Shown piece after piece: positions 19,365 to 52,450 of a DNA stretch of 64,000 bases; within the stretch, counting starts at the first letter, position 1, and every line of letters starts with the position of its first letter. The position numbers and the translations under genes are program-made. The notes under the pieces were generated by a model that was not told where the DNA came from, did no database searches, and was given only the letters and a program-made list of their open reading frames with translations. The stretch comes from Chara braunii (Eukaryota > Plantae > Charophyceae): the NCBI GenBank assembly GCA_003427395.1, contig BFEA01000024.1:337989-401988 (forward strand), read 5' to 3'.

Positions 19365-19367
<3 letters not shown>

Positions 19368-19450: not shown

Positions 19451-19454
<4 letters not shown>

Positions 19455-28446: not shown

Positions 28447-28502
<56 letters not shown>

Positions 28503-31500
28503 GCGCGATACGTGGCAGGGCTGCGTGTGTGCAAATGCAAAGAATGCTCAGAGTGTTGACGTCCATGTTGACTCTCACATGCAGGAAGCTAAAGAGGGGA
28601 CACATGTGCGGACCAGAGCCGAGACCAAGCCCCCTAGGTGGTTGTGAGTAAGCCACTGGGAGTGGGCAGTTTTCAAGGAGCTTCACACATGATTGGGAGA
28701 GAAGAGCCATGCGTGACGCGTGAACACTATGGTGGCGGGTCTCAGAGAGCGCTCAAGGACAGTAGACGTCGTTGTTGACGACAACATTCCCCTTGTGTAG
28801 AGCGCGTCCGCAACTCCTGGACAGAGTTAGTAACATTGCGTCCGCCAAGCTGGGACAATCACAAGAAAACAAACGGGGGTTGAGCCTGCGTGACTGTGTG
28901 GAAGAGTGTCCGTGCCCAAGCCCAAGCGAGAGCGCTACGCCTGAGTACGTGGTTGGGGTCACCCTCCATTTGGGTGACCCATCTCGCCAGTCGTTGCAGG
29001 TCGCAGCACTATCAGTTTCGTCGGATTATCGTGATAAGCCTGGGGTGGGCTTTTTTCACCATGTGCTTGGTCTCTAGGCTAGAGAGAATGTGCGCACTTG
29101 CCTTTTTGAACTCGTGCCTAACGATGTTGCTTTCTTGAATGAGCGAACACGAATGGAATTGGGGTTCTCATACTGTGCACTTCAGGCGTAATCAGTGAGA
29201 CAGCGGGCCGACTATCACGAGAAAGAGAGGACTAGGTGGACACGATTGTGAGAAAGTCACGCTCACAGCAAGCTATGAGGAAGAGGCAAAGAGGTTGCGA
29301 AATAGACTGACCAATCATCACTTACCTGGGATTGGTTTCCGCTGCACTCCCGGGGAATAAGTTGTTTTCCTCTTTTTCGTCCTTTCGGAAGCTGGAAAGT
29401 GTGTATGCCTTTCTGGGTGCGTGCCTATGGTGGTAATTCTCTCGAAATAAACGAGACAAGAAATGGACTTAAACACACGCGTCTTGTGAACTGAGTGGGA
29501 TCAGCGTGACAACGGGCCAACTGTCGAGTACGTGAGGCATCGAGTAATTAAGGGCTATCCCACGACGCCAACATGTTCGAGGGGAGTGGGCAGTCATAGC
29601 TTAGAAATGAGAGTGGGTGAGGTTTCCCTTGCAGCTGGTGCCATGTATGACGTAGCGAGAAGGTCTCCAGAGCACAGGCAAAACCCGAAGAAGAGAGCAT
29701 GATGGCCTATCGAGGTCCAGAGCAAGGGAATATATCAGTTGACGTCATCCTATGGCATTGCTAACGCAGGTCAATCTTCCAGAAGCAGTGCGCCCTCCTC
29801 GTTAGTCTGAGTTTTTAGCGAGGTTTCCTTGAGAGAAGAGCATACATGATGTCGAGGATGCTATTATTAGCAGTAGATTCCAGCTAGCAGCCGCTGCGAC
29901 CCTCGTCCAGATATGTGAGGTATTCTCTCTGTGAGGCAGTGACTAGGCGGTATAGAGGTGATGGCGTATGAATGACGTGTGTACAGAGAGGAGATATGGG
30001 TGAGAATAGTGAGAGGGAAGGTTAAAATGAGCGACTTACTTAGGGGATAGAAATTGTGTCGCCTCTGATTTGTTTTATATACTGTCTTGAGCTGCGCGTG
30101 AAGGGTGTCATGGTTGGCTATAATGTAGAAATAAAGGGTATGTGGTGAACGCTCCACGGGAAGACACGGCGCTTATCAAACCTAGGTAGAGTTTTAATTG
30201 AGTTATTTTGGTACTTGAGTCGACAGTATGCGTGCAGTATGAGGTTGAGCGCATGGACAAGTTTTCTTAAATCACGTACGAAAGACGTGAGCTAAAAACG
30301 ATGACGCTATCAACGGTGTAAGTTACATAATATTTCTCCTTTTAATTGATCACGCTCTGTGTGATGACTCGGTCATGAATGGGTCGTGCATGAAAAGAAG
30401 TTGTTCTCGGCCAAGGTGAGTGGGGGAAAACAAGTAAGCGCAATTGATTGTTAACATTATTGGGTTTTTAGTAAACGACGTACTTTACCCTGGTCAGACT
30501 CTCACAAGCATCCCGAATCTGGCTACTAAGGAGAAGTCACATAGACTATTGCGACCGATTTCACAAGGGGATCTTGTACGAGTTGGGCTAATGAACATTG
30601 ACGACTCTGAGTAACTTACCTGTGACTGGACTGAGAAAAACTAGCTTTGTTGAATGAACTCACTCTTAGCCGAAATGGGGTAGGGCCTCGTGTTACAGCT
30701 GTGAGTTGTGGAAAGGTCGGGTCCGACATACTACTTGATCAGTATTATGGCAAGGGGTACTTACCGTCGGTTAAGTCTCCTATGTGAAATTCGAGAACGG
30801 GCCGCATGTGGTAGGCGAGTAACAGAAGAAGGGAAAAACACAGAGGAGTCGTAAGTGGGTTCTGCCAATGATTAGTCAATTGTAAAACGTTGGACTCTCG
30901 ACGAGGCCGAGTAGGGAGGAGGATTGTCACGGTCCTCTCTCTCGTTCGTTCATTCTCACGTGAAGGGCAAACGGAAAACGGTTACTTGGTGAGCCGTCAA
31001 GCGGCTCTAAGCATCAAATTTTGTGTTTCTCCAATCGATTGGATGAGTCAGAGGGGAAGAACCTTAAGAAAAGTGGCTTATATTCTTGCTAAATTATTGG
31101 TTGATGGTGATTAAATTAAAATCTTGTATACTGAATCAGGTTTAACGAGTTTGTGGGTCATGTTATAGCAAGTCTTATCCAATAGTGTTTGTACCATAGT
31201 TGAGTAAAAATAAAAATGAGCACTATATAACATTGTGCCTGAGGGTTGTGGTCTGATTTACATGTGAGTGGGGAAAGAACAAATATACAGAGTGTGTGCT
31301 TTGTTTTCACAAACATAGCTATGAGCTGTATAGCACGGGTTCCTCACGGGGAGGGGGTTGAACGGGTTAGGACAATACCTGAGGCCATTATTGTTCCCTG
31401 TATGTTGTGAATCGGTGTTCGGGCTGCTCTAAACGGGTAACCTCCCTTGAGGTACTCAACTCGCGTGCCAAGCGTGTGAACCAGCAACTTGAAATTATAT

Positions 31501-31837
31501 TCAGCAGTCGCCCTGGTAAGGCTAAATGGTATTGTCTCGGTGGTCTCGGTAACCCATCCCAGTAAAGCCTAGCTATCTGACTTTTGTACCCTCCTTGAAC
31601 GACGACTATAGATTTTCACTCAACCACGGACTTGTATCAGTACTCGAACTATGCTCAATAAAAGTCTACGGACCAAGGTCGACTGGGAAGATAACAGTCC
31701 AGCAGCGATCAGATAGGGCTCTCAGAGCGGGCTCCTTGACCGATCTCCATATCTGTCTCTAAACTTGAGCACACTCCCGCCAAAACCTTCCGCGGGCTGC
31801 ATCATCGATGACTTAAACCTTGGGGAGTGGAAGGAAT

Positions 31838-32067
31838 CATGAAGAAAGGTGAAACCTTAGTGACGAAATGTGAGGTTATTATGGGAAGATAAGGCTGTCC
31901 TGAGTATGAAGCACTTGAAAATAGACTTGAGGGAGAATGTAATTCGGAGGGTTAAGGAGGAAAATATCATCGAATATGTGTTTGAGTTTCGAGATCGGAA
32001 TGGCAAGCTACATAGCACCGACTCCTTCTCAGAAACGATAGAGCAGGCCCGAGCAAGGCTTAAGTGA
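31838..32067 (+). pseudogene. LTR-encoded ~80-aa ORF, frameshifted copy of 50776-51021
   Basis: Same C-terminus (VIRRVKEENIIEY.F.FRDRN..HSTDSFSETIEQA..RLK); a short deletion breaks the frame in this copy. Confidence 0.45.
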
Positions 32068-32340
32068 ACGTGAAAGGTTCTGAGGCTTCTTTATCAGCAG
32101 TCCTCAAAAGTCAAACAACACACAAGGATCAACAATGGTTATTATCTCAGCCTCACGTTATCAAGCGATTAATAGTCATTGATTTGTTATTTCAACAACG
32201 TTTAGCCACTCAAGTTACCAGGAAATCTTGACCAAGATCATTCAGCGCTCAATCATTGCAGGTTGACATTGAGACCAATATCAATTAGTATGTGCATTCA
32301 CCAAAATAATTAAGACCCTCTTAAGTGTTCACCTCTACCC

Positions 32341-33001
32341 ATGAGCGCAATTCAATCTTTCCTTTTAGTGAATCAGTCTTAGTCAGCCTCAACATCATAG
32401 CCCTCAAAGATGCAGTCCAGTATCGATACGTGAGTGCAGTTGGCTTCAAACAAGGAAACCTATCTATTTTTGTTGTTTTCATCTCACTAGTTATGCAGCA
32501 GGCACTATCCTCGACCCGAGACTCTACGTGAAGAAAGGCAAGGAGACTCATGAAAATTTTGAGTTAGTTTGGATCTCAGCGGCTAGATACCTTGAGGAGA
32601 GAGAGAGGGAGCTAGACGAAAGTGGAGTGAAGCTGATTCGCAGCTTCGGAGCAAAGCTCTATACAGTTAACCCCAAGCCTCCAGTTCCTTTTACTCTCAC
32701 TGATGGTTTTTATTGGGGTGAACTGGTGTATCTAGCCAAGAGGTACATTTCGCCTGCAATAATTGATTATGAGGCAGTGACTGAGCCATCAGAGTTCCAA
32801 CATCTCAGACGAGGGATCTTCTCTCGACCATATCTCCCTACACCATGGGAGAAGTTTTGCGCTATGGTTGACTTTCGTGTCATGAAACTTGGTTGGAAAT
32901 GTTCAGAGCTCGCAGGCTTCAAGAAGCTCTACATCGAGAGACCACAACCTCAGGCAGTACAGAGACTTGGCTCAAAGTATAGGAAACATACAACAAGATG
33001 A
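32341..33001 (+). pseudogene. LTR-encoded accessory ORF 'L' (~218 aa ancestral), 5' copy
   Basis: ATG at 32341; two frameshifts (1-nt loss ~32360, 5-nt TTCAT insertion ~32478); the 157-aa distal part is open in both LTRs. Confidence 0.65.
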
Positions 33002-33495
33002 GAGATTGAGTGTATTATCCAGAGGGATGAGTGAGAATCCCTGACTAATGCTGACCATGCTCTCATCATGAGTACTCTCTAAGATTATTATGAGTTCTCA
33101 TTCTTCCCTCACTCATGTTGTCATTGCTCAAGTTAGTCAGTTTTGCTTCTTTTGCATTGACTCTGCCAGATGATTATGCTTTTGATGATTTTGTCACAGT
33201 TCTCAAAATTAGAAAATTGCCAAGCCTAATGCATGCATGACATACCAAAATTTCATGATTATTATTTGCATAATCTTTGTTGTTCCGAATCAAAATTAAA
33301 AATTCCTAAGACCGGGGACCGGCGAAGACCGCAATTTAAGGGTCTCGCTCGAAGCCGAACGCACACAACAGGAAGCGATTTGCCTTAATTAATTAATTTA
33401 TTTAATTCAGAACAACATCCAAAATCCTGCGTGACAGCCTGTTGGCTTTTTGGTCGCTCGAAGAGGCCTGACTAGAAAAAAAAGTGCGACAAAAA

Positions 33496-33513
33496 TTGAG
33501 TCGTTGTCGGGGA
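33496..33513 (+). promoter_or_regulatory. Degenerate PBS, tRNA-Asp type (element 3)
   Basis: TTGAGTCGTTGTCGGGGA matches TGGCGCCGTTGCCGGGGA at 14/18 positions, 4 nt after the LTR end. Confidence 0.65.
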
Positions 33514-33834
33514 CATGAAAATCTTTCGTGTTAGGAACGAGCCTGGGTCAGTGACAACTTTGAGTTTTTATTAGGACATGACTGTTGATAATGTCTGAAT
33601 TTTCAGATTGACTTTGACATCATGAGTGGGTCATTATTTTACTGGAAGTTTTCAGTCGCTAACGGGGTCTTATCTCCTCATGTGTGAGGTACCACACTGG
33701 ACCGGAGAAGGAGACTGACGTTATTCATTGGAGAGGAATCAGGCTTGATCACAGGTATGCCTTATGAGCCCTTGATGTCCTTGAAGATCTGAGTAAGAAG
33801 AGAACGAGTCAGAGGGTAAGAGATTCAATCAAGA

Positions 33835-34110
33835 ATGCTAACTGCTGATTCACTGAAAGAACTCTCAAAATTTACTATTAAACGGGTATTTCCCTATCAG
33901 TATGAGCATTGTTGGGTTTACCACTCTGGCAGTTTGACCATCCGTGTAGTACTGGCTCACTTTTTGGAGCGAGATATCCATGATATTCGTCCCTAAGCCA
34001 AGAAGGGAGGCTGCAACGACGGTGAACCCTTTAACTGGTTATAAAAAATTGTTGTTCAGTCTATCTACGACGAAAGACAAATCTAATTAAACGAAAGAAG
34101 AAAGTGGAAT
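33835..34110 (+). pseudogene. Accessory paralog 'C' of the LTR ORF L family
   Basis: MLTADSLKELSKFTIKRVFPYQYEHCWVYHSGSLTIRVVLAHFLERDIHDIRP*AKKG aligns without gaps to SLNIIALKDAVQYRYVSAVGFKQGNLSIFVVLTSYAAGTILDPRLYVKKG. Confidence 0.6.
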
Positions 34111-34236
34111 GGGGGTTAATGCCTGTAACCTATGAGACAATTCCAACTCCTTTTATTCCTGAGAGTTATTGTAAAGGAAGTAATTGGTTGCCAATAGTTA
34201 ACATGGTACTGAGTTGGAAGAAATGAGAAGGCGGTC

Positions 34237-34527
34237 ATGAGAACAAGAAAAACGTCAGCAGAGGAAATCAGACATAGAAGACTGAAATTTGATAGAGGTT
34301 CAGGTCCGAGCAAGGAAAAGGTCGAGTGTCTCATCAGATCACTGAATGTTTTAAGTGAGAGAGAAGTGTTCCCATACAAAATTGTCAAATATGAGATGGT
34401 CGAGAGTGGATGGGAGCAAGAACGATTCTATGTCATGACATTCTACTTTACAGATCTAGACACATATTATGTAAGAATTTATGTTCCTAAACAAAGGAGT
34501 GTTGATGCTGTGTATGGGAGATGCTGA
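34237..34527 (+). CDS. Accessory paralog 'A' (96 aa), unknown function
   Basis: Open ORF; SLN..S.REVFPYKIV..E...G.....FYVMT.Y......VRIYVPK motif shared with L, B, C and D. Confidence 0.6.
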   Translation: MRTRKTSAEEIRHRRLKFDRGSGPSKEKVECLIRSLNVLSEREVFPYKIVKYEMVESGWEQERFYVMTFYFTDLDTYYVRIYVPKQRSVDAVYGRC

Positions 34528-34717
34528 AGATTTGCCTAAGAAGTTGTACTGAAAGAGAAAGAGAGACTCGAGAGAGAAAATAAGTGTTTCATTGGATCTA
34601 CTCAGCTTGCATTCTTTGAGAAAATAAGTGTCCTCCTTTACCTGATGTTTTGTCAAGAAACAATTGGTCTGCTGTGATTGAGTTTGCACTTAAAGTGAGA
34701 AGAGACCAAAGACACAA

Positions 34718-34945
34718 ATGAGACGATCATACCTACCTTCAAAAGTGAAACCCTGGATTAGGTTGGGAAATGGATATAGGAAGCTGAGTAAGGAAGATTC
34801 TGATAAACTGCCTAATTCTCTTAATTCTATAACAAGGAGAGCGGTGATCTCCTACCAAATCGTGAGGTATGTATGTTCTTACCTGTTATTTTATTGACCT
34901 TGATGAGTTTGATATTGGGAGCTACGTGCCACGACATAGGTTTGA
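34718..34945 (+). pseudogene. Accessory paralog 'B' (internal deletion and frameshift)
   Basis: LSKEDSDKLPNSLNSITRRAVISYQIVRY, then in a shifted frame YVLTCYFIDLDEFDIGSYVPR; closely parallels paralog A. Confidence 0.65.
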
Positions 34946-35235
34946 AGAGTGTAGAAGCGGTCAATATTGGCAACGAGCATCAGATGTTGTGCATGATGAA
35001 AAAAAAAGGCTTGGATGAGTAGGGGATAACTTCTCTTAGAGTACTTACGTCAGGCCTTTTACTAGGATACAATCTCCACTTGTTGAAGGACTTATGTTTT
35101 CAAGGAATAAGTGGTCAGTTATGATAGATTTTGTGTGAAAGGTGAAGAGGGTTCAAGGAGAATACTCCCGGCAGCAAGGATAACTGTTGTGATATATTTT
35201 GTATAAAAGATGAAGAGGGTTCAAGGAGAATACTC

Positions 35236-35951
35236 TTGGCAGCAAGGATATATGCTGTGAGAGGTAGACTTTATGAAGTAATTGGGTCTAATAATCCCTT
35301 TGTAATCTTGAGATGCGAGACTTGTGTAAGAGGGCGAATAATATTTCACATTCCAGTAGTCAAGTTCTTGAACACAGGCAGCTTGGACGTAAGGGTTTAC
35401 ACTTCGGTATGCCTAGAAAAGGAAGTTGGTTATTTTGAATGTCGGTTAGGAGTTTATATCAGTCTTATAAGGACAAAAAAGTGGCTGGAAAAATTAGAGA
35501 GGAAAGTAACTTGGGGAGAAGGAATAAGACAATTTGAGAAACTCCCTAGTTTTTTTTAAACTACTGATGACTTTGACGACAGGAGAGACTAGTCACCTCT
35601 TCTAAAAACCATTGTCATTGTAGGTAACGTAAGGAACAATGACTTCATAGTGATGATAAAGTCCCTACTCTTAAATACTTTTGAATACCAGTTCGAGATC
35701 CATGAAAAATTACAGAGGAAAGTAACTTGGGGAGAAGGAATAAGACAATTTGAAAAACTCCCTAGTTTTTTTTAACTACTGATGGCTTTGGCGACAGGAG
35801 AGACTGGTCACCTCTTCTGGAAACCATTGTCATAGTAGGTAACGTAAGGAAGAGTGACTTCATAGTGATGATAAAGTCCCTACTCTTAAATATTTTTGAA
35901 CACCAGTTCGAGATCCCTGACTATATTCATCCTGAGATCTACCTCCCCTAA
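35236..35951 (+). pseudogene. Accessory paralog 'D' with an internal ~215-bp tandem duplication
   Basis: PFVILRCETCVRG...KFLNTGSLDVRVY matches the family core. After the poly-T, KLPSFF-TTDGF...W matches L's KPPVPFTLTDGFYW. 35488-35701 is duplicated at ~35704-35916. Confidence 0.55.
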
Positions 35952-36552
35952 CATTGTTCATGATGGTCGATAATGCCTGGAACGGTTGATCAGCTAACAT
36001 TCGGGGTTGTATTGGAAGGTAGAGTTGTTAAGACAGAAGAGACTCTTCGGATCTCAGACACAGGTCTCTCTGCTTTGGATGAACTTGCGTTTCTGTAACC
36101 TTTCTTTGATCAGATGACAGACTGCGCTCTAAGAGTCATCACTGACCACACTGAGATCAACTATTTACTGAAGGTAATGAGAGTGAGAATTATTGAGAGA
36201 ATATCATATCACTATTCTAGAGAACGAGTCTCTCTTGCTAGAAGAATCAACAGCGGTTCGTAAGCTATGCAAATTGACTATGAGATTGTAGATCTGATAC
36301 GATACTTTATGATCAGGGTACTGTGAAAAGGTATAACAAAAGATTGAGTAGGGATGATGAAAGAAAACTGATTGAAGGTTATATTGGAAGACTGCGAAGT
36401 ATTGCATTACCTTTGATCACCACCCAGTTTACTATTGCCTACATTCTCTATATACAAAACTCTCAAGGGGTAGAGCAAACAAGAGAAGGGAGAAACGAGT
36501 CTGTATCCCTTGCAAGAAGAGTAAGGGAAAAATAAGAAAGAGGAGTACAAAA

Positions 36553-37632
36553 GTGACAGGAAGAGAGATAAGAGATTATCAGGGGAAGTTTATGGTTAAA
36601 ATGGCAGGACGAGGGAGACCTAGCTCTTCTGCAGGGACTAACGACGAGACCCTGATTGGTACCATACGAGAACTGGTCGAGAGAGTTAACACGATAAAAG
36701 GAGGGTCAGATATTGCAAGGACAAAGAGGCCAGATGAGAGGACTCCATGCTTAAGAGGTCCTCAAGTAAATGATTTCTTGGATGAGTATGAATTGTTCGG
36801 GCTCGGCTATGGTTGGACAGACAAACAACGACTCAAGCACCTTTTGTCTTATTGTGACATTGACTCGAGGTTGGCTGTTCAAGAGTTGATGGAAGAGGCT
36901 ACAACATGTGAAAAAGTCAAAGAAAGAATGAAGAGGGAACTTGAGAAAGACTCTGTCTCAACTACTACCAAGGACCTACTCAACATCAGAAGAGCTAAGT
37001 ATGACACCTTTAATGTCTTCCTTCAAACTTTTATCAGAACAACTAGGAGAATCCCATATTTGGATGAGGCTCAAAGATGCCATATTTTTTTGACTAATTT
37101 TATAGATAATGAGAGACAAACTGTTCTCAATCAAGCTCGACACTACCCTCTCAGATGTGATGAAATGGTTGAAATAGTCAGAACTCTGCCTACGGTCTCA
37201 CACAAGAAGTGGTTACTGAATCAGATCAGTACGCTGACTAAAGACTGGGAGACCGAGAACGGTATGAGCAGAGGGAACAATTTTAGTGTTGAAAATCTTA
37301 TTCAACGAGTTATAACCAATTACATGCCTGCTAACCATGTCGATGATGAAAAAAGGAAGAAGAAGGCTGAAAGCGAAGATGAAGATGATGATGATGATGA
37401 TGATGACTATCGTAAAAGAGGACATTCCTCCAGGTCAAGAAAGAATAAAGGAAATGGTGAAAAAAAGAACAGAGAGAAAAGAAAGTATGATGAACGTCCA
37501 ATGAAGAGTTATGTCTGTTATTATTGTGGTGAGGGAGGTCATACTTCCACCTACTGTAAACCATTGGAGGAGGATGTGAAGAGTGAGGTGGCAAACAAGG
37601 ATGCAATGAGTCATGTTTGTGACAGTTCATGA
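36553..37632 (+). pseudogene. gag: gag of element 3 (the TGA at 37630 is probably premature)
   Basis: FLDEYE...GWTDKQRL gag-like core, acidic/basic tract, CYYCGEGGHTSTYC knuckle. Confidence 0.8.
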
Positions 37633-37836
37633 AACAAACTGGATCTTAGACACCCCGAAGGTATGAGACTTTTTGCCATTAAACATGAGGAAAAAATGAA
37701 GAAAAAAAAGAAGAGAAAAGTCAATGTAAAATGTTTATTTTTTCATCGGTGAATTGCCTGAAGGGCTTGTGCAAAAATTGATGACTCTCTTTCATTGATT
37801 GAATTGCCTCTATAGTCTCTAACTTTACTGAAAGAC

Positions 37837-40800
37837 ATGTCTGACGATGTTTTTTCAGGTGGGCTATTGTTGAGAGGGAGTTCTGTTTCTCGGACTTCTT
37901 CTAAGCTAGTAGCATTTTCACCTAGCGAGCCCGCCTGTTCAACCAACATGATGTATTTCGAGGGTGATGTACCACCGAAACTTATTATGGAACCCAACGA
38001 GGTGATTGGAGAAGTGAGGAATCTTCAACGCTTTACGCCACAAATGATAGAGAAAAAAAAGAGAAAACAAGTTGAGGAGACTCTAATTAACATTCTTGAT
38101 GATCAAGAACCAGACCCTCAATTTAAGAAGAGTGAGCAAGGGAAGAAGATAAAATTTATCCTCAATAGTGAGTTGGAAGATGAAACTGTAACTACAGATG
38201 TAATTACAAAAATGTTAAAAGAAAGGGAAGTGACTTTGTCTTTCAAGGAGGCAATGACTTTAGCACCAAAGTTGAGAGAGGAACTCAAGAAGTTAATCGA
38301 TAAGAAAATGATGGAAGTTAATTATCTGGGATCAATCTTTCCCAGCCAAGTCAACATGACCTTACCAGGATGTAAAATGAGATTCGCAACCATGGGCTGC
38401 GGGTATTTAGCTATCTACATTAATCAAGTGAAAATCCGAGCCCTAGTGGATTCTGGGGCAGAAATGATACTTATCTCTCAGAGAGCTATGGAAGCCTGTG
38501 ACCTGACCATTGATAGACCCTAAAAGCAAATGTTAAGTAATATTGTTGACCAACTCTTTGTGGCAAGGTTTATCGATAATTTGTCCATCAGGGTTGGGAT
38601 GATGTTAGTTGAACTACTGGGATTTGTGGTATCAGATCTAGACCATGATTGTATCTTGGACACTCCATTCTGACATAGGATGAAAACTGTCCAGTTCTTC
38701 AGTCATGAGGGGTCATCCTGGATTGGCTTGCAAGATCCAGAGACTGCACAGGAACAAACTTGTATGGTTTGTACTTCTCATCATCATAAGTATAAAATAT
38801 CAACTAACTCAATTAGAAGAGAAAAAATTGTCGAGAAGATAAGGAAGGAAAAGGGAAAAGACAAACAGGAAGTCAATGAGGAAGTTTCAGTTGATATCAA
38901 TCAGATCTCAAAGATGATGAAAACCCTTGGCAAACTCAAAGATGAAGATGGGAAGATTGAAGCATTTAAGAAGGTTGTTGAAAATGCTAATGGTGAAAAA
39001 ATGAAATTAAAGTTTGTATCAACACTTCTTTTTTTAGGAAAATAGTCACTGAGTCAAAAAAAAAAAACGAGCCCAAGGGGTTGAAGAAGAACCCAGTAGC
39101 AGTTTTTATTGAGAAAGATTATTATGAGGCACTGGAAAAGGAAAGGAGAATTATTAAAGCATTAAGGGAGTCTGCGAAATTGGGGAATAGAGTCACCAGG
39201 GAAAGGTTTGACACGATGAAGATAGGTTCTGACCAGTTCATCTTGCCTAAAGAGAAATAATATATCTTCAAAGTGTGTCAAAACTTCTCTGGTGCATTCT
39301 CTTTTAATGATGAAGAAAGAGGGCGGTTGAATGTGGATATGATTGAGATGACAAAGATCTAGACAGTTGATCCAATTCCATGGAATGACAAACCAACCAA
39401 GTACGCCTTGAAAGAAGAGGCAGAAGTAGTAAAACATCTGGATAATAAAATTGTCTCTAATGTTGCTGGACCTGCGGATGGACTGTATGCTAACCACTAG
39501 TTTTGTTTATGAAAACCAGAGGGTGGACTGAAATTGATACATAATCTTCAAAAATTCAACTCAGTAACGATACGTGACGCGGGTAACCTTCCTAATGTTG
39601 ATCTCCTTTCTGAATTTTTTGCTGGTCGATGCATTTATTCTTTAATTGATTTGTATTTTGGCTATGATCAGCTTCCCATTGATCCCACTAGCCGACCAAT
39701 GACTGTCATGCACACGCCGAGGGGCCTCATTCAAATGTATGTGGTACCTCAGGGTTGGACCGATGGTGTGACAGTGGTTCAAAGGGACATGATTCAAGTC
39801 ATGCAGGACATCTCACCCGAGATAACAAGTCCTTACGTTGATGATAATCATGTGAAAGGACCCCTAGTAAGAGACGAGACTTTGGTCGCTGATGAAGTCA
39901 GGAAGTTTGTTTGGGAACATGTTGAGGAAGTGAAGATGGTCCTAGAGAGACTTCATAAATATAACCTGACCGTCAGTGGACCAAAGTCCCTTCTCTTTCA
40001 AGCAGAGGTAACCGTCTTGGTTTAGATGTTTCTCCAAGGGTAGGAGCCTTGACCCCAAGACGATAGACAAAATTTTGAACTGGTGTCTAACGAGTGACAA
40101 ATGTTAGAAACGTTTTGGGTGTCTGTGGGTTCTGGATGATTTTTATTCCTCATTTTGCTACCCTTGCAGAACCTCTAAGAGAAATGGTGAGACAAAGGGC
40201 TGACTTATCTTGGACTGAGAAAAGACGGAATGTTGCAGAAACTTTACAAGAAAAATAAAAAGATGGGGGAGTAGTGTTGAGAGTCTTTCTATGATGATGA
40301 AGAGGGAAGACCCTTCATCATCGAGCCAGATGGGGGACCAGTGACTCTTGGTGGTGTACTTATACAGAAAGACAGGAATGAAAATGAGAGACCTCTGAGA
40401 TTTGAGAGTAAAACTCTTAACTCTACAGAAAGATGCTACACCCAGTTTAAGAAAGAGCTACTGACAATCATCCATTGTCTCAGGTGCTTTAGGCACTATG
40501 TACTTGGAAGGATATTCATCCTTAAGACTGGTGCATATGCTGTGATTGGTGCTATTAAAAAACATCAACAGTGGATCCAACACTAAGCAAGTGGATTGCT
40601 TTCATTTAAACTTTTGATTTTAAATTGAAAAAAAATCCTACTGAGAAAAATCGGGCTTTATTTGAATGGAGAAAAGAAAAAGATGAGAATGTTGATGGGT
40701 CAATCGAAGAATCTGCCTATGTTGATAACTTCTTAAATGAGGAAGACGACGAAGACTATAAGGCTTCGAGCTCTTACAAGTGGAACTTATGGCCTGAAGA

Positions 40801-42300
40801 GAGAGACAGTTGGGGAGAAACCCCTGATGCTTATGTCTATGAATTAATTCTTGAAAAATACGAACAACAACAACAAAATGATTGGTAATGCTAGAGTCAA
40901 TGCAGCGGTTGTGGCTGCTCATGAACTGAGAGAGAGTTCTGGTTCAAAGAATGAGGAAGGTGGTGAGAAGAAAAACGAAGAGATATCATTTATCTTTGAA
41001 GAATATGATGAAATTTATCAAGAGATTGGGAAGAAGATGGAAAGAGAACGATAAAAGGAGTATTACTGCAAAAACTTAAAGGAAAAGTTTAGATTAAAGA
41101 GAGGTCACCTCTTTGTGGATGGCAAATGAGACTTACCTCCACTAAGAATTGTATGTGGGAAAGAAAGACAACTAGAAATAATTGCGGCTCTACACGAGGG
41201 GATTGTTGGTGGTCATAAAACTGCTGAAGCAACCTACTCTAAGACAATTAAACTTTACTCATGGCCTGACATGAGAGACATGTTTTACAGATTCTGTAAG
41301 TCATGTGTATTATGTCAGAAGAGGTCGACAACAAGGATGATTGAGCCTTTGTTTCTTACTATTCTGATGGAGTCAGGCGATCGAGTTCACCTGGATCTCA
41401 TCACTATGCCCCTTGGCAAGGGTGGTGTGAGGTACATACTGAACATGAGGGATAATTTTTCTGGATATGTTGAGGCAAAAACTTTGAAGAGGAAGACACC
41501 CGAGCAAGTGGCTGACTGGATAGAGGAGGCCTATCTCAGGTATCCCTTCATCAGAGAGTTTGTCTCAGACAGAGGATCTGAATTTAGAAATGAGATTGTA
41601 AGACGAACCACTCTCAAACTTGGTGTTAGAATTCGGTATGACTACTTATCATCCTCAAACAAATGCACATGTCGAAAGCGGTCACAAGACTCTGAAAGAT
41701 TCATTTGCTAAATTGTGTGAAGGGAACCTCAATGATTGGCCAAAAGTATTGAGTGTTGCAGCTTATGCTGACAAGATCATTGTCAAGGGAACCACTGCTT
41801 ATGCTTCATTCACTCTTTCATATAGTCGGTATGCTACTCTGCCTATTGAAAGTATAATCAAAACATGGTCAAGTCAAGAGAGTGACAAAGAGTATTCTAT
41901 TTCAGAGTTTCTTCAGATCAGAATGAGACAGATATCAAAGGTTGATCAAGCAGTTATGGATGCTGCAAAGAGAATGACAACCAACAGATTATCAGATCAA
42001 GAGAGATGGAACAAGAAGAAATATATAAGAAAGAGAAACTGAAAGTTGGTGACGTTGTCCTCTTATTCGATAATTCCCTTGAGACGCGGTGGACTAAACG
42101 ATTGGAGCCCAGATAGCTCGGTCCCTAAAGAATTACAGGTGAAAAAGAAGACAAAGTCTATGAAATATCGAAGATGGATGGCTCAAGAGTTCATGATATG
42201 GTATCAGGGTCAAAACTTCGTAAGTTTATCTTCAGAGACTCTGACTTGGTCCCTACAATGGTCACAAAGAAAGGAAAGAAGAACCAGTCATCTAGTAAGA
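37837..42300 (+). pseudogene. pol: pol of element 3 (PR, RT, RH, INT with GP-type tail; no chromodomain seen)
   Basis: ALVDSGAEMILIS; IDLYFGYDQL...VPQGWTDG...SPYVDD; LGGVLIQ...FESKTL...KKELL; H..GGH..CVLC, VHLDL, SDRGSEF, YHPQTNAHVE. Confidence 0.9.
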
Positions 42301-44350: not shown

Positions 44351-47300
44351 CATGATAGGTAGAATGAGTGCCCTCAAATGTTAATATTATTTGGACAATA
44401 TTCTGGGCGTCATTGCCAAGATAAGGAGCAAGGTAATTTTCTTTCTGAAAAGGTTCAGTAGCAAGACAAGTGAGCGGCAGATGGGAAATCCTTCTTACAT
44501 TTGTTTGGTGGCCAACAAGCGGTCTGACTCACAAGGAACCTGCATCCCCGGCCTCAGGATATTCAAACTCTCAAGCCAGAGACGCAATTGAATGGACTGA
44601 AAAGTCAAGACAAGAAAATGATTCAGAAATTTGAGAGAAAATCGCGCTTATACAGGATGTAGAAGACAACCATGAACTCAATCTGAAGTAAGGAAAGAAG
44701 AAAGAAGATGCAAAAAATAGTGCAGTCGCTGAGATGAGAAGAAGGGGAAACTGCACATGGGGTAGGAGATGGTGGAATTGGCACTAGGGCCCTACTCGCC
44801 GCAGGGGTAGTGGGGGCTCTGGGGGAAAACGGAGGAGAGGAGAGACTTGGGGCGCCATAGCGCGCCAAACTTCTTTTGGAAACACTCCATCTTAGTGGGC
44901 GATGGAGTTCTCTCGTGCCAACTAGTGAGTGAGTGGTGCGGGTATGGCCTTGTGTAGCCATATCCTTAACCCCCCTCCTCTTCCTCCTCTGAATTGTACT
45001 CGTGACTTGCACGAGGTGGCGGCTCTTCCCGAGCCTTCCCTGCTCTTCCACCTCTTCCTCTCCCCAGTCCCCGATGTGCTTCAGGCATGGTGTGAGGTGG
45101 GATCCAAATAGAAACACCACAAGGCAAAGAAACCTGCACTAGGAGATGGTTGTGCTGGATGCGTAGAAAGATAGCGCGATGGGGGAAAGAGGAGTGTGCT
45201 GCGAAAGGAAAGCGTTAATTCAAGGTTGCCTCGAGAACTTTGCTGCAAAACGATTGTGAAGAGTATGTGAAAGCATCACGAAACTCGCTATCTTATATTA
45301 ACCATCTACTTTGTTTGGCCCAGTGGGGACTCTGGGCGGGGGTTTGGTATTATGTCGGAGGGCGTGGTGTCTCGGCCCTCCGCTGCTTTCAGGCATTCGC
45401 CCACTCAGGGTTGTTTACCAGATTTCCACTCACTTACCGCTGCAGGCCTGATATTAGTCAACACGGTCGCGTGGAATTGACAGGCTAGGCCTTGTTACTA
45501 GGCCTTCCGATGGGACCGCATGGGCTCGACACCCTACCTTACTGCGAGTCGTCCCACAGCCAAAAAGACTAATTGGGTCTTGTCTGGATAGGAGAAAGGG
45601 TAGCACGGTTTACTCAACCGCGCGTCAGGCCCCAATGGTCGTGATCCAAGCTAGATGCAGGGTATGATAGTGATAGCCGGTGCTGTCTTCTCAACCGCAC
45701 GCCAGGTTCCTGTAGTTGGGTTATAGGGTAAGTGCGGTGGCAACAGTCACTATCAATAAAAGAGAAAATACAGAGAAAAGTAAAGGAAAAGAGGAAAAGA
45801 AAAAAGGGTCGAGCACGAAGCTTCAGATCCGTCCTAGATCTAGATCGTTGCTGCTCGATGGCTTTCGTGATATCTCGACGCAAGAGAGATTCAAAGCGTC
45901 CTCCCCCTCTCCTTATAATTATTATTATTACTATTATTATCATTATTATTATTATTATTATCGACTTCCTTTACCTAATTTCCCTTCTGTCATTTCGCTG
46001 GAGGCTAACGGTTCAGTTTTGAACTCCGATTGAAGCCTGGCGGTCTAGACTAGCCGTCCCTTCGTGTATCGCCTGTGGCTGAACTGTTCGGTTGAGCGCC
46101 GTGCAGTAGGACCCCAAAAGAGGGGCAACCCGCGACTGCTTCGGTAGGAGGCTTATAACCCCCAGAGGAAGGTCATAAGCCCCCTCCTTGCCATCGGACA
46201 CAAGTACCCAATAGAAGTAGGCCGGAGGCACGTTTTGAAGAGAGAAGGGCGTCCGTCGGTATCCCATTACCGTGTCTAGTCTGCAGGTCACTTTCACTTC
46301 TGAGGAAAAATGTTTAGTGGCTGAAAGCGGAAGCTGACGTTATGACCGTTGGTGTCACGCCACTTATTTTTCCCCCTTTTATTTTCCTTTGTTTCCTTTC
46401 CATTTATTCTATTAAATTCTAAAAATTCAAATTATTAAAGATGCAGAGTCTTTGAAGCTATTTGAATCCCCTTTTTAGAGCACGAGGATGGCGTAGGCAG
46501 TGATCGTATAGAAGAGAGGGAGATGTGTCACTGGCAACTGGGGCAAAGGCAGTCCCGTTGCACTGAGCACGGGTGAGTCGAAGAGGGAGGACCGGGCAGC
46601 AAAGTAAGCGCGTGGGTTCGTTCGTGTGTGTGTTTGCCCCGGGTGTTTAGTTCTGGCTATTCTGGAGCTTGGTAGCCTAGCACCGTATACAGTCCATTCG
46701 AAAAAAGGCTCAACTATGGCATGTAGCAACCGTCTTTTCGGCTATAGGTCAGGGCACCTGAGGTTTTACTGGAGTTGGGAGCGTATGCGAGAAGAGGAGG
46801 CTACAATGGATGCCTACTTGAGCTACAGTAAAAGTGACGCGGTGGCTAAGCTAAAAATTAATGTCTACAGAGGGAAAGAATAGGAGATGAGTGAGGATGG
46901 AAAAGTGCAGGGGGTAGTGACTTAGGCTCGCAACAGAGCCGAGCGAAGGTGCAGGAGGGATGCGACCGCGACCCTGAAGGTTACGGTTACTTATCACGAG
47001 AAAGAGACTTCCACTAGCACGACCGAGAGAGAGCAGCAAGAGCTGGACCGAGATTCAAAGGTTGAGTCCGAGGCCAGCGATGCGCAGACTCGGTCCTAGC
47101 ATGGGCTGGAGCAGTGGAGGAGAGAACACCCGCCAACCGAGTAGGTAGAGGACGACCCAGAGACCAGCTCGGCCCAGCAGAGAGACTGACGCAGTGAGAC
47201 GGTTACGGGTCGACGGAGAGAGAGAGAGAGAGAGGGCGAGAAGGGCGCGATACGTGGCAGGGCTGCGTGTGTGCAAGTGCAAAGAATGCTCAGGGTGCTG

Positions 47301-47551
47301 ACGTCAACGTTGACTCCCGCGCGCAGGAAGCTAAAGAGGGGACATGTGTGCGGACTAGAAAGGGGAACTTGAGGTGACGACGAGAACAAGCCCGCTACGT
47401 GGTTGTGAGTAAGCCACTGGGAGTGGGCAGTTTTCAAGGAGCTTCACACATGATTGGGAGAGAAGAGCCATGCGTGACGCGTGAACGCTATGGTGGCGGG
47501 TCTCGGAGAGAAGGGAGACCGAAAAATCTCGCTCAAGGATAGTAGACGTCG

Positions 47552-47950
47552 TTGTTGACGACAACATTCCCCTTGCGTACAGTGCGTCCACAACTCCTAG
47601 ACGGAGTTAGTAACACTGCGTCCGCCAAGTTGGGACAATCACAAGAAAACAAACGGGGGCTGAGGCTGCGGGACTGCGTGGAAGAGTGTTCGTGCTCGGG
47701 CCCAAGCGAGAGCGCTACGCCTGAGTACGTGGTTGGGGTCACCCTCCGTTTGAGTGACCCATCTCGCCAGTCTTTGCAGGTCGTAGCACGATCAGTTTCG
47801 TCAGATTATCGTGATAAGCCTGGGGTGGGGGTTTTTCGTCGTGTGCTTGTGTGCGCTTGCCTTTTTGAACTTGTGCCTAACGATGTTGCTTTCTTGAATG
47901 AGCAGACAGGGATGGAATTGGGGTTCTCGTACTGTGCACTTCAGGCGTAA
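47552..47950 (+). CDS. LTR-internal ORF (132 aa; homolog 28772-29077), function unknown
   Basis: Open in both LTR copies for ~100 codons; no recognisable domain; non-ATG start. Confidence 0.3.
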   Translation: MLTTTFPLRTVRPQLLDGVSNTASAKLGQSQENKRGLRLRDCVEECSCSGPSESATPEYVVGVTLRLSDPSRQSLQVVARSVSSDYRDKPGVGVFRRVLVCACLFELVPNDVAFLNEQTGMELGFSYCALQA

Positions 47951-50775
47951 TCAGTGAGACAGCGGGCCGACTATAACGAGAAAGGGAGGAATAGGCGGAC
48001 ACGATTGTGAGAGAGTCACGCTCACAGCAAGCTATGAGGAAAAGGCAAAGACGTTGCGAAACAGACTAACCAATCATCACTTACCTAGGATTGGTTTCCG
48101 CTGCACTCCCAGGGAAGAAGTTGTTTTCCTCTTTTTCGTCCTTTCGGAAGCTGGAAAGTGTGTATGCCTTTCTGGGTGCGTGCCTATAGTGATAATTCTC
48201 TCGAAGTAAACGAGACGAGAAAGGGACTTAAACACACGCTTCTTGAGAACTGAGTGGGATCAGTGTGACAACGGGCCAACTGTTGAGTACGTGAGGCATC
48301 AAGTGATTAAGGGCTATCCCACGACGCCAACATGTTCGAGGGGAGTGGGCAGTCATAGCTTAGAAAAGAGAGTAGGTGAGGTTTCCCTTGCAGCTGGTGC
48401 CATGTATGACGTAACGAGGTCTTGTTCTTTTCAGGTCTCCGGAGCACAGGCAACAACCCGAAGAAGAGAGGATGATGGCCTATCGAGGTCCAGAGCAAGG
48501 AAATATATCAGTTGACGTCATCCTATGGCATTGCTAACGCAGGTCAATCCTCCAGAAGCAGTGCGCCCTCCTCGTTAGTCTGAGTTTTTAACCAGGTTTC
48601 TTTGAGAGAAGAGCATACATGATGTTGAGAATGCTATTATTAGCAGTAGATTCCAGCTAGCAGCCGCTGTGACCCTCATCCAGATACGTGAGGTATTCTC
48701 TCTGTGAGGCAGTGACTAGGCGTTATAGAGGTGATGGGGTATGAGTGATGTGTGTACAAAGATGAGATATAGGTGAGAAAAGTGAGAGGGGACGTTGAAA
48801 TTGGCGACTTACTTAGGGGATAGAAATTTGTGTCGCCTATGATTTTTTTTATGTACAGTCTTGAGCTGCGCGTGAAGGGTGCCATGGTTGGCTATAATGC
48901 AGAGATTAAGGGTATGTGGTGAATGCTCCAGGGGAAGACACGGCGCTTATCAGACCTGGGTAGAGTTTTAATCAAGTTATTTTGGTACTTGAGTCGACAG
49001 TATTCGTGGAGTATGAGGTTGAGCCCATGGACAAGTTTTCTTAAATCACGTACGAAAGACGTGAGCTAATAACGATGACCCTATCAACGGTGCAAGTTAC
49101 ATAATATTTCTCCTTTTAATTGATCACGCTCTGTGTGATGACTCGGTCATGAATAGGTCGTGCATGAAAAGAAGTTGTTCTCGGCCAAGGTGAGTGGGGG
49201 AAAACAAGTAAGCGCAATTGATTGTTAACATTATTGGGTTCTTAGTAAACGACGTGCTTTACCCTGGTCAGACTCTCACAACCATCCCGAATCTGGCTAC
49301 TAAGGAGAAGTCACATAGACTGTGGCGATCAATTTTACCAGGGGATCTTGTGCGAGTTAGGCTGATGAATATCGACGACTCTGAGTAACTTACCTGTGAG
49401 TGGAAGGAGAAGAACACGTTGGTTGAGATCGAAAAGGTCATCAATATCGCCTGTGACTAGTGGGCAAAGATCAGGGCAAGAGATAAGGTCGCGACTCACT
49501 TTCTCCATACCCTTTCCCCATGATCAAGTTCATTCCTTAACGATGCTATGGAAGAAGGGAACTCACGGGATAATAAAAAAAGATTTGTTGAATGAGCCCA
49601 CTCTTAGCCAAAATGGGGTAGGGCCTCCTGTTACAGCTGTGAGTTGTGGAAAGGTCGGGTTCGACATACTACTTGATCAGTACTGTTGCAAGTGGTACTT
49701 ACCCTCGGTTAAGTCTCCTATGTGAATTTCGAGAACGGGCTGCATGTGGTAGGCGAGTAATAGAAGAAGGGAAAAACACAGAGGAGCCGTAAGTGGGTTC
49801 TGCCAATGATTAGTCAATTGTAAAACGTTGGACTCTCGACGAGGCCGAGTAGGGAGGAGGATTGTCACGGTCCTCTCTCTCGTTCGTTCATTCTCATGTG
49901 AAGGGCAAACGGAAAACGGTCACTTGGTAAGCCGTCAAGCGGCTCTAAGCATCAGATTTCGTGTTTCTCTAATCGATTGGATGGGTCAGAGGGGAAGAAC
50001 CTTGAGAAAAGTAGCTTATATTCTTGCTAAATTATTGGCTGATGGTGAGTAAATGAAAATCTTGTGTACTGAACCAGGTTTAACGAGTTCATGGGTCATG
50101 TCATAGCAAGTCCTATCCAATAGTGTGTGTACCATAGTTGAGCCAAAATTAAAATGCGCACTATATAACATTGTGCCTGAGGGTAGTGGTCTGATTTACA
50201 TGTGAGTGGGGAAAGAACAAATGTGCAGAGTGTGTGCTTTGTTTTCACAAACATAGCTATGAGTTGTATAGCATGCGTTCCTTACTGGGAGGGGGCTGAA
50301 CGGGTTAGGACAATACCTGAGGCCATTACTGTTCCCTGTATGTTGTGAATCGGTGTTCGGGCTGCTCTAAACGGGTAACCTCCCTTGAGGTACTCAACTC
50401 GCGTGCCAAGCATGTGAACCAGCAGGTTGAAATTGTATTTAGCAGTCGCCCTGGTAAGGCTAAATGGTATCGTCTCGGTGGTCTCGGTAACCGATTCCAG
50501 TAAAGCCTAGCTATCTGACTTTCGTACCCTCCTAGAACGACGACTATAGATTGTCACTCAACCACGAACTTGTATCAGTACTCGACCTATGCTCAATAAA
50601 GTCTACGGACCAAGGTCGACTGGGAAGATAACAGTCCAACAACGATCAGATAGGGCTCTCAGAGCGGGCTCCTTGGCCGATCTCCATATCTGTTTCTAAA
50701 CTTGAGTACACTCCCGCCAAAGCCTTCCGCAGGCTGCATCATCCATGACTTAAACCTTGGGGAGTGGAAGGAATC

Positions 50776-51021
50776 ATGAAAAAAGGTGAAATCTTTGTGA
50801 CGAAATGTGAGGTTATCATGGAGAAGAATGAAAACTGGGAAGATGAGGTTGTCCTAAGTATGGAACACTTGAAAATGGTCTTGAGGGAGGATGTAATTCG
50901 GAGGGTTAAGGAGGAAAATATCATCGAATATATGTTTTACTTTCGAGATCGGAATGACAAGCAACATAGCACCGACTCCTTCTCAGAAACGATAGAGCAG
51001 GCCCAAGTAAGGCTTAAGTGA
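50776..51021 (+). CDS. LTR-encoded ~81-aa ORF, function unknown
   Basis: ATG-initiated open frame with globular-looking composition; homolog in the 5' LTR. Confidence 0.45.
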   Translation: MKKGEIFVTKCEVIMEKNENWEDEVVLSMEHLKMVLREDVIRRVKEENIIEYMFYFRDRNDKQHSTDSFSETIEQAQVRLK

Positions 51022-51295
51022 ACGCGAAAGGTTCCGAGGCCCCGTTATCAGCAGTCCTCAAAAGTCAAACAACACACAAGGATCAACAATTGACAATTAT
51101 ATCAGCCTCACGTTATCAAGCGATTAATGGTCATTGATATGTTATTTCAGCAGCGTTTAGCCACTCAGGTTACCAGGAAATCTCGACCAAGATCAGTCAG
51201 CGCTCAGTTATTGCAGGTTGACATTGAAACCAGTATCAATTAGTATGCGCATTCACCAAAAGAATTGAAACCCTCTTCAGTGTTCACATGTACCG

Positions 51296-51950
51296 ATGAG
51301 CGCAATCCAATTTTTCCCTTTTAGTGAATCAGTCTTGGCCAGCCTCAACATCATAGCCCTCATAGATGCAGTCCAGTATCAATGCGTCAGTGCAGTTGGC
51401 TTCAGACAAGGAAACCTATCTATTTTTGTTGTTCTCACCAGTTTTGCAGCAGGCACTATCCTCGACCTAAGACTACGTGCAGAAAGGCAAGGAAACTCAT
51501 GAAAATTTTGATTCAGTTTGGATCTTAGCGGCTAGATACCTTGAGGAGAGAGAGAGGGAGCTAGACGAGAGTGGAGTGCAGCTGATTCGCAGCTTCGGAG
51601 CAAAGCTCTACACAGATTACCCCAAGCCTCCAGTTCCATCTACTCTCACTGATGGTTCTTATTTGGGTAAACTGGTGGATCTAGCCAAGAGGTACATTTC
51701 GCCTGCAGTGATTGATTATGAGGCAGTGACTCAACCGTCAGAGTTCCAACATCTCAAACGAGGGATTGTCTCTCGACCATATCTCCCTACACCATGGGAG
51801 GAGTTTTGCGCTATGGTTGACTTTCGGGTCATGGGACTTGGTTGGAAGTGTTCAGAGCTCGCAGGCTTCAGTTGGCTCTACATTGACAGACCACAACCTC
51901 AGAGAGTACAGAGACTTGGCTCAAAGTACAGGAAACACACAGCAAGATGA
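51296..51950 (+). pseudogene. LTR-encoded accessory ORF 'L', 3' copy (single 2-nt deletion near 51472)
   Basis: ORFs 51296-51502 and 51477-51950 join into ~218 aa if the CT present in the 5' copy (AGACTCTAC) is restored. Confidence 0.7.
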
Positions 51951-52450
51951 GAGATTGAGTGTACTATCCAAAGGGATGAGTGAGGACCCTTGACTTGTGC
52001 TGGCCATGCTCTCATCATGTGTACTCACTGAGATTATTATGAGTTCTCATTTTTCCCTCACTCATCTTGTCATTGCTCGAGTCAGTCAGTCTTGCTTCTT
52101 TTGCATTGACTCTGGCAGATGATTATGTTTTTGATGATTTTGTCACAGTTCTCAAAATTAAAAAATTGGCAAAACTAATGCATGCATTACATACCAAATT
52201 TCATGATTATTATTTGCATAATCTTTGCTGTTCCGAATCAAAATAAAAGATTCCTAAGACCGGGGAGTCGCGGGGACCGGCAAAGACCAGAATTGAAGGG
52301 TCTCGCTCAAAGTCGGACGCAGACAACAGGAAGGTATTTGCCGTAATTAATTAATTTATTTATTACAGAACAGCATCCAAAATCCTGCATGATAGACTGT
52401 TGGCTTTTTGGTCGCCCAAAGAGGTCCGAGTAGAAAAAAAAAGTGCGACA

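What the first reader, a model, noticed from the sequence alone, without database searches (positions are those of the whole stretch)
51296..51560. Shared core looks like an alpha-beta-beta-beta-alpha, dsRBD-like fold: candidate TE-encoded silencing suppressors
L's VLASLNIIALKDAVQYRYVSAVGFKQGNLSIFVV...AARYL follows the dsRNA-binding-domain pattern (helix 'L.xLNEI', 'QY..vS..G', 'F.V', final 'AA' helix). It lacks the canonical G-x-G-x-SKK-x-A motif. dsRNA-binding viral silencing suppressors and TE anti-silencing proteins (VANC of VANDAL) are established. Assigning such a role here is only an inference, but it would explain expansion and rapid divergence in a host-TE conflict.
Basis: inference. 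Interest (0 to 1): 0.75.

Follow-up and report, generated by a model that had tools for sequence, protein, structure and literature searches.

The report
Giant algal retrotransposon's five accessory paralogues
The stretch is a broken copy of one of five related extra genes carried by a 26-kb retrotransposon of a stonewort-type alga; their shared protein domain is predicted to be longer than a dsRNA-binding domain and lacks its RNA-contact motifs, so they are likely uncharacterised helper proteins that contact host proteins, and silencing suppression remains untested.

Summary
51296-51950 is a frameshifted ~217-codon ORF (L) near the 3' end of a 7.1-kb LTR. The same ORF lies in the 5' LTR of a 25,879-bp Ty3/Gypsy element whose RT is 73% identical to a Chara braunii protein. 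Four diverged paralogues (A, D, E, F) lie in tandem between the 5' LTR and gag. A profile built only from database proteins finds all five. Only 6 of 1.84 billion representative proteins matched: three Chara gene models and three short ORFs from unnamed contigs.

But the domain continues with a fourth strand and a conserved PxPP/DGxxW tail (about 130 aa). It lacks GPxH and KKxAK and is net neutral. It should not be filed as a dsRBD, and no known fold could be assigned.

Family copies differ mostly at third codon positions (20 of 40, hand count), so the ORF was likely under selection. RNA support is slight. Best reading: a new, tandemly amplified accessory-protein family of a giant Gypsy element, likely host-protein adaptors. 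A dsRNA-binding silencing suppressor is a minority rival (about 0.1).

The parts
51296..51950 (+). ORF L, 3'-LTR copy: about 217 codons, shared ~130-aa domain plus an L-specific C-terminal part; one frameshift near 51467
32341..33001 (+). ORF L, 5'-LTR copy; two frameshifts (near 32357 and 32478); open from 32483 to the stop
26572..33491 (+). 5' LTR, 6,920 bp, TG...CA
45353..52450 (+). 3' LTR, 7,098 bp, 92.5% identical to the 5' LTR (K2P 0.08); element flanked by a 4-bp target-site duplication ACGC
33757..34214 (+). Paralogue A (in-frame stops; C-terminal part in a shifted frame); limits approximate
34237..34703 (+). Paralogue D (in-frame stops; C-terminal part in a shifted frame); end approximate
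34718..35147 (+). Paralogue E (not among the three ORFs the finding names; frameshift near 34860, stops); limits approximate
35296..35607 (+). Paralogue F (profile match; not among the three ORFs the finding names), followed by a 215-bp tandem duplication that includes its tail
36376..37632 (+). gag-like frame with a CCHC knuckle (read from the sequence; no Pfam hit)
37816..41711 (+). degenerate pol in Ty3/Gypsy order: protease (Pfam Asp_protease E 1e-5), RT (RVT_1 2.5e-11), integrase (H2C2 4.7e-13, rve 1.5e-8)
50776..51021 (+). ORF U, 81 aa, upstream of L in the LTR; frameshifted in the 5' LTR; not shown to belong to the family
50162..50168 (+). TATA-like motif kept in both LTRs (also at 31224), about 2.3 kb before the LTR end; candidate promoter upstream of U and L (motif only)
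52242..52247 (+). AATAAA about 200 bp before the LTR end (ATTAAA at 33295 in the 5' LTR); candidate poly(A) signal downstream of L (motif only)

Best explanation
L is a broken copy of one of five paralogous accessory genes of a 26-kb Ty3/Gypsy retrotransposon, and the small alpha/beta proteins they encode likely act as adaptors that bind host or element proteins to help the element replicate or evade control, not as dsRNA-sequestering dsRBDs. Shown: the element's anatomy; the homology of L, A, D, E and F; intact single-domain relatives with their own start and stop; high copy number. Predicted: an alpha-beta-beta-beta-alpha-beta domain with a proline-rich tail. Inferred: A, D, E and F arose by tandem duplication of a ~0.5-kb unit. 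Inferred: transcription from the TATA-like motif in the LTR would put U, L, A, D, E and F ahead of gag, and would let any LTR, solo LTRs included, make a short L message. Inferred: divergence to 17-38% identity reflects different partners or a host-element conflict. The partner and the pathway are unknown.
For: Anatomy: LTRs, target-site duplication and pol order. Homology: held-out tests found E at 24.2 bits from A+D and A at 19.4 bits from L+D, against decoys of 4.5-7.3 bits; the database-only profile finds all five. Intact relatives of 131-161 aa. The tree separates L, A, D/E and P0011 types, with each of L, A and D/E grouping with a database relative. Selection: family copies differ from the window at codon position 3 in 20 of 40 positions, p 0.02, and in 17 of 28 without the basic tail, p 0.003 (hand count from five X1 loose-end rows inside the ORF; test). 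One of D's stops is a sense codon in 1804 of 1828 depth units. Summed contig depth rises from 40-70 upstream of 51305 to 300-20,000 inside and after the ORF, so the ORF and LTR end are shared by far more copies than the upstream LTR. Conserved columns are mostly hydrophobic, aromatic, Gly and Pro. The domains are net neutral, with K+R/D+E of 24/23, 15/15, 18/17 and 14/13. In Arabidopsis, TE accessory proteins had the most predicted host contacts (PMC13547354 passages).
Against: No partner or activity was tested, so 'adaptor' is reached partly by exclusion. R53, K89 and R127 and several aromatic residues are conserved, and a basic patch follows strand 3 in some members, which leaves nucleic-acid binding open. 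Two held-out tests were weak: L from A+D at iE 0.067 and D from L+A at iE 0.28. dN/dS between the two LTR copies is 0.68 with an even codon spread of 13/11/16; this fits decay after insertion and gives no selection signal in this copy. The third-position count is small and was done by hand, and the 17-of-28 subset was chosen after seeing the data. Depth could also reflect conserved cis elements at the LTR end. RNA reads are few, diverged and largely on both strands. L itself was not folded; its relatives D and P0011 were. The L-specific C-terminal ~85 aa is unmodelled.
Confidence: 0.45

Rival explanations
1. The domain is a degenerate restriction-endonuclease-like (PD-(D/E)xK, Sen15-like) fold that has lost catalysis and binds the element's RNA or DNA, for export, packaging, translation of the long leader or sequence-specific anti-silencing. 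The paralogues might form a heteromer.
For: The order alpha-beta-beta-beta-alpha-beta is that of this fold's core (recalled). With the D model the top tied rows included SLFN12 (Z 5.3, rmsd 3.2, 86 aligned), a human splicing-endonuclease chain, 8iss_A (Z 5.2, rmsd 3.0, 74 aligned) and an archaeal splicing endonuclease (Z 5.0, rmsd 2.7, 68 aligned). There is a near-invariant D-x-R-x-Y on strand 3.
Against: All Z values are below the 7-8 that the tool gives as typical for unassigned models. With the better model these rows fell to Z 4.3 and 3.7, and gelsolin domains led. No acidic residue is conserved at the start of strand 2. The D-x-R lies at the start of strand 3, not at its end where the recalled E-x-K sits.
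Confidence: 0.2
2. One reading: dsRBD-like proteins that bind dsRNA or siRNA and suppress host RNA silencing.
For: The first five predicted elements have dsRBD order. Basic residues follow strand 3 in L, A, D and E. Charophytes of Chara's grade encode DCL and AGO clades (PMC7994812 passages). A retrotransposon-borne helicase has shown weak suppressor activity (PMC6338049).
Against: No GPxH and no KKxAK. The strand 1-2 turn is only 2-4 residues. The helix-to-helix span is about 84 aa, with an extra strand 4 (pLDDT about 89) and a conserved tail, and the net charge is neutral. Known TE-encoded anti-silencing is narrow, unlike that of viruses (PMC6719617 passage).
Confidence: 0.1
3. Gelsolin-like, actin-binding proteins that move element particles in the giant streaming cells of the host.
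For: Villin and gelsolin domains lead the list for the better model (Z 5.3, rmsd 4.3, 82 aligned; Z 5.0, rmsd 4.2, 80 aligned) and recur weakly in Foldseek.
Against: Z is within the noise range, rmsd is above 4 A, identity is 5-12%, and helix 1 is left unaligned. No Pfam gelsolin hit in 14 rows.
Confidence: 0.07
4. The ORFs are passengers: remains of a captured or nested gene, duplicated and carried along with no current use to the element.
For: Every copy in this window is broken, dN/dS between the LTR copies is 0.68, and RNA support is slight.
Against: The element's gag-pol is equally broken. Intact relatives of the A and D/E types exist, and an L-type record is unbroken across this copy's frameshift. 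Third-position excess and conserved motifs persist at about 20% identity. No cellular donor was found in 1.84 billion representatives.
Confidence: 0.13

Closest known systems
Ogre (Tat) giant Ty3/Gypsy elements of dicots
   Same: [quoted passage not shown] Here: 25.9 kb, LTRs about 7 kb, internal region 11.9 kb.
   Different: Here there are five paralogues of one domain, one of them inside the LTR. No sequence link to Ogre ORFs was seen (no such hit). The RT's named relatives are from Chara.
Retrosat2/RIRE3/RIRE8 ORF0 of grasses
   Same: Long LTRs and a fast-evolving, lineage-restricted extra ORF upstream of gag-pol, of unknown function (PMC3485330 passages).
   Different: ORF0 is a single ORF. 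Here there is a tandem array plus an LTR-borne copy, and no homology was detected.
Double-stranded RNA-binding domain (Pfam dsrm)
   Same: Predicted order alpha-beta-beta-beta-alpha for the first five elements.
   Different: Longer; fourth strand and conserved tail; no GPxH or KKxAK; neutral charge.
VANC of VANDAL (MuDR) transposons
   Same: A TE-encoded accessory protein, and a model for a counter-defence role.
   Different: DNA transposon, structurally related to MAIN, sequence-specific demethylation of its own family. No similarity was found here.
Chara braunii gene models CBR_g4049, CBR_g46266 and CBR_g30998
   Same: They contain L- or D-type segments of this family.
   Different: They are long models labelled hypothetical or by an RT domain, probably chimeric predictions across nested elements (inference). 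The domain itself is unannotated.

Membership tests
dsRBD | alpha1-beta1-beta2-beta3-alpha2 order | tested here: met
   (predicted models of D and P0011)
dsRBD | 65-68 residue domain that ends with alpha2 (PMC11309768) | tested here: not met
   helix 1 to helix 2 spans residues 3-86; strand 90-100 and a conserved tail to about 127 follow
dsRBD | GPxH in the beta1-beta2 loop | tested here: not met
   0 of 4 window ORFs; absent in all 9 alignment rows that fully cover the loop, which is a 2-4 residue turn
dsRBD | KKxAK at the start of alpha2 | tested here: not met
   0 of 4 window ORFs; absent in all 11 rows covering the strand 3-helix 2 junction
dsRBD | conserved Glu in the middle of alpha1 | tested here: inconclusive
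   the conserved helix-1 columns are L8, S10 and L11; Glu occurs in some rows only
dsRBD | Pfam dsrm profile at its cut-off | tested here: not met
   no dsrm hit
dsRBD | structural superposition, both helices on one face of a three-stranded sheet | tested here: inconclusive
dsRBD / viral silencing suppressor | binds dsRNA or siRNA; suppresses silencing | not testable with these tools
   needs bench assays
PD-(D/E)xK / splicing-endonuclease-like fold | alpha-beta-beta-beta-alpha-beta order (recalled) | tested here: met
PD-(D/E)xK / splicing-endonuclease-like fold | structural match standing above unrelated rows | tested here: inconclusive
   Z 3.7-5.3, tied with gelsolin, GNAT and others
PD-(D/E)xK nuclease | catalytic Asp at the start of beta2 and (D/E)xK at the end of beta3 (recalled) | tested here: not met
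   no conserved acidic residue there; D-x-R lies at the start of beta3
VANC anti-silencing proteins | encoded by a MuDR/VANDAL element; MAIN-related domain | tested here: not met
   the carrier is a Ty3/Gypsy element; no such Pfam hit
Ty3/Gypsy LTR retrotransposon (carrier) | paired LTRs TG...CA, target-site duplication, gag then PR-RT-IN | tested here: met
Additional ORFs (aORFs) of plant LTR retrotransposons | extra ORF present in many copies, without cellular homologue (PMC7264820) | tested here: met
   high summed depth in DNA runs X1 and X2; 6 hits only, none a named cellular gene

The most novel reading that the evidence does not exclude
This giant charophyte Gypsy family carries a five-member set of counter-defence proteins built on an undescribed alpha/beta domain, each paralogue aimed at a different host silencing or restriction factor. 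The LTR-embedded member L is made from every LTR, solo LTRs included, and so protects the whole family in trans. It would be a retrotransposon counterpart of retroviral accessory-gene arrays in a close algal relative of land plants.
Probability: 0.2. Interest if true: 0.8.

Novelty: new variant of a known kind. Interest (0 to 1): 0.5.

Why it matters
Extra ORFs in plant LTR retrotransposons are common, but their origin and function are largely unknown (PMC7264820). This family is unusual. It has five paralogues of one unannotated domain at about 20-40% identity, one of them inside a 7-kb LTR. It has signs of selection and naturally intact members that can be expressed as they are. It gives a tractable test of whether high-copy retrotransposons use accessory proteins against host control, in the algal lineage close to land plants. 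It also defines a protein domain that had no hit at cut-off in the Pfam, NCBIfam, PHROGs and PDB searches run here. The dsRBD label should not be carried forward.

Tried and rejected
Fold searches. No dsRBD appeared among the rows shown in five searches: Foldseek PDB for both models (0 matches at E<=0.001, best-ranked rows only), BFVD for the D model (0 at E<=0.001), and VIA-align against 48,161 chains (best Z 5.3, 0 at Z>=8, 50 rows each). Absence from these lists does not exclude a fold.

Sequence searches. PDB sequence searches gave nothing better than E 0.1. Pfam, NCBIfam and PHROGs gave only single-row weak hits. The word-indexed protein search found nothing for L's C-terminal part (0 of 39 candidates, 95-303 aa) or for the six-row alignment (0 of 1118, 19-179 aa), although later found relatives in that size range, so those blanks mean little. 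ESM Atlas feature hits were all <=0.83 and its structure rows had TM <=0.50 on a pLDDT 0.45 model; these are leads only and were dropped. The Atlas was not run on D.

Genomic context. Metagenome contigs gave 0 of 376 and 1 of 74. That one, L001, is a short chance match in an unrelated locus and was rejected. No whole genome was held, so copies could not be counted or aligned. No RNA holder was listed.

Other rejected items. Alignment A2 was misaligned and not used. A frame at 35973-36413 (G) and ORF U looked similar by eye but failed the tests (shuffle p 0.11-0.80; no hit with the 14-row profile). Rfam found nothing in 26500-52500. No canonical tRNA primer site follows the 5' LTR. Earlier findings: none. 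No complex prediction was run.

Literature. Ten searches listed no paper describing this ORF family. The Chara genome paper did not appear in these listings and no supplements were read, so a description there cannot be excluded.

Full report
Setting. The finding lies in the 3' LTR of one large element. The 5' LTR is 26572-33491 (6,920 bp) and the 3' LTR is 45353-52450 (7,098 bp). Both run TG...CA, with a 4-bp target-site duplication, for 25,879 bp in all. The LTRs are 92.5% identical over 6,850 columns, K2P 0.08. The element interrupts the integrase region of another Gypsy element. Inside are a gag-like frame and protease, RT and integrase remains in Ty3/Gypsy order. The RT's three database relatives are all Chara braunii proteins, 73, 58 and 56% identical (3 of 260 candidates). 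That Chara has 20-30 kb Gypsy elements is recalled from its genome paper, which I did not see. No genome was held.

The observation. An ATG at 51296 opens a frame that shifts once near 51467 and ends at 51950, about 217 codons. The 5'-LTR copy (32341-33001) is broken at two other places. The Chara model CBR_g4049 carries both halves in one frame, 82 of 130 residues identical, so L is one gene.

The family. A (33757-) and D (34237-) resemble L weakly in pairs (shuffle p 0.005-0.016). In held-out profile tests on 852 six-frame chunks, A+D found a new member E (24.2 bits, iE 1.7e-6) and L+D found A (19.4 bits). A+D found L only at iE 0.067, and L+A found D only at 0.28. Reversed decoys reached 4.5-7.3 bits. 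A full HMMER scan of 1,835,955,588 representatives gave 6 hits. Three are Chara gene models with L- or D-type segments. Three are intact 131-161 aa ORFs from short unnamed ENA contigs, with one further cluster member. A profile from those four unnamed ORFs alone finds D, E, A, both L copies and a fifth member F, at iE 2.5e-25 to 2.3e-7. Homology therefore does not rest on my own alignment of window pieces. Core identities among L, A, D and E are 17-38%. The tree (11 of 14 rows; three short L fragments left out; F not included) gives L, D/E and P0011 groups with support of 95 or more and a weaker A group at 82. A, D, E and F lie about 0.5 kb apart. G (35973-) and U (50776-) are not shown to be members.

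Selection and expression. Between the two LTR copies dN/dS is 0.68, with differences spread evenly over codon positions, as expected for decay after insertion. Other family copies, seen as contig ends in run X1, differ at the third position in 20 of 40 sites (p 0.02) and in 17 of 28 without the C-terminal tail (p 0.003, subset chosen afterwards). This is a hand count from the five X1 loose-end rows inside the ORF, which showed 18 of 836 such rows; the test is. One stop in D is a sense codon in nearly all other copies. Summed depth is 40-70 upstream of 51305 and 300-20,000 from there on; it is not a copy number.

For RNA, 6-13% of each of three runs was read. On 31600-36600, 9, 624 and 16 reads were laid. 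On L, 345 and 16 reads were laid from two runs, none 95% alike or better. In X6 the reads lie on both strands and half or more run on into unlike sequence, which looks like fragments inside other transcripts. The 16 X7 reads cover only the ORF and mostly one orientation, which would be sense in a standard stranded library. This is weak.

Fold. AlphaFold2 on D (6 rows, pLDDT 73.5) and on intact P0011 (14 rows, pLDDT 79.5, core about 90, pTM 0.72) agree. The order is helix 3-15, strands 22-32, 35-44 and 49-57, helix 64-86, strand 90-100, then a proline-rich linker and a last helix. A dsRBD is 65-68 residues with an alpha1 Glu, GPxH and KKxAK (PMC11309768 passages). Here GPxH and KKxAK are absent, the strand 1-2 turn is tight and the domains are net neutral. 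The conserved columns are L-x-S-L, F/V-P/Q-Y, G33, F44, D51-x-R53-x-Y55, W70, A73, L84, P-x-P-P-x-P and D-G-x-x-W. The best structural rows are tied and weak: Schlafen middle domain and splicing-endonuclease chains at Z 5.0-5.3 for the D model, and villin/gelsolin at Z 5.0-5.3 for the better model. All are below the 7-8 typical of unassigned models, so no fold family is assigned. L itself was not modelled.

Mechanism. Shown: anatomy, homology and intact relatives. Predicted: the fold. Inferred: duplication of a ~0.5-kb unit, and expression from the LTR. A TATA-like motif about 2.3 kb before each LTR end and a poly(A)-like hexamer about 0.2 kb before it bracket U and L (motifs only, and several such hexamers occur in each LTR). 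I commit to protein-binding adaptors that aid replication or counter host control (0.45). The domain is small and neutral, has no catalytic signature and diverges fast while keeping its core, and TE accessory proteins are predicted to be hubs of host contact (PMC13547354 passages). Rivals: an inactive nuclease-like nucleic-acid binder (0.2), passengers (0.13), a dsRBD-like suppressor (0.1) and a gelsolin-like actin binder (0.07).

Comparison and novelty. Extra ORFs of unknown function are known in Ogre, Retrosat2, Retand and Grande elements. A tandem set of five paralogues of one unannotated domain, one of them inside the LTR, was not listed in ten literature searches.

Papers seen: PMC7264820, parts 1-2 of 3; PMC6338049, part 1 of 4 and passages; PMC13547354, PMC6719617, PMC6431247, PMC7994812, PMC11309768 and PMC3485330, passages only; the others as search listings. 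No supplements were read.

Verdict. This is a real, previously unannotated accessory-protein family and a new variant of a known kind. The dsRBD label is not supported and silencing suppression is untested. Interest 0.5.

Noticed in passing
window:50776-51021 (and about 31840-32065): ORF U, 81 aa, open in the 3' LTR and frameshifted in the 5' LTR, upstream of L; low depth in other copies; only weak Pfam hits.
   Followed up: partly
window:35973-36413: Degenerate frame G just before gag; looks like another extra ORF but did not match the family profile.
   Followed up: partly
window:33492-33530: No canonical TGG tRNA primer site after the 5' LTR. A TGTCGG motif like the LTR start occurs about 14 bp in; the priming mode is unclear.
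   Followed up: no
window:35488-35920 and 35118-35250: Recent tandem duplications (215 bp x2, 68 bp x2) inside the accessory-ORF array, suggesting the array still duplicates.
   Followed up: no
window:19758-20431 and 53142-53815: A 674-bp direct repeat (93.6%), likely the LTRs of the Gypsy element into whose integrase the 26-kb element inserted.
   Followed up: no
window:1442-5837: A further Gypsy gag-pol, with a 663-aa open gag-like frame followed by protease- and RT-like frames.
   Followed up: no
window:62069-63307 (-): A 412-aa stop-free frame with a long Asn-rich microsatellite; possibly part of a host gene or a repeat.
   Followed up: no
window:41712-45352: About 3 kb between the integrase remains and the 3' LTR, with short internal repeats and no family match.
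   Followed up: partly
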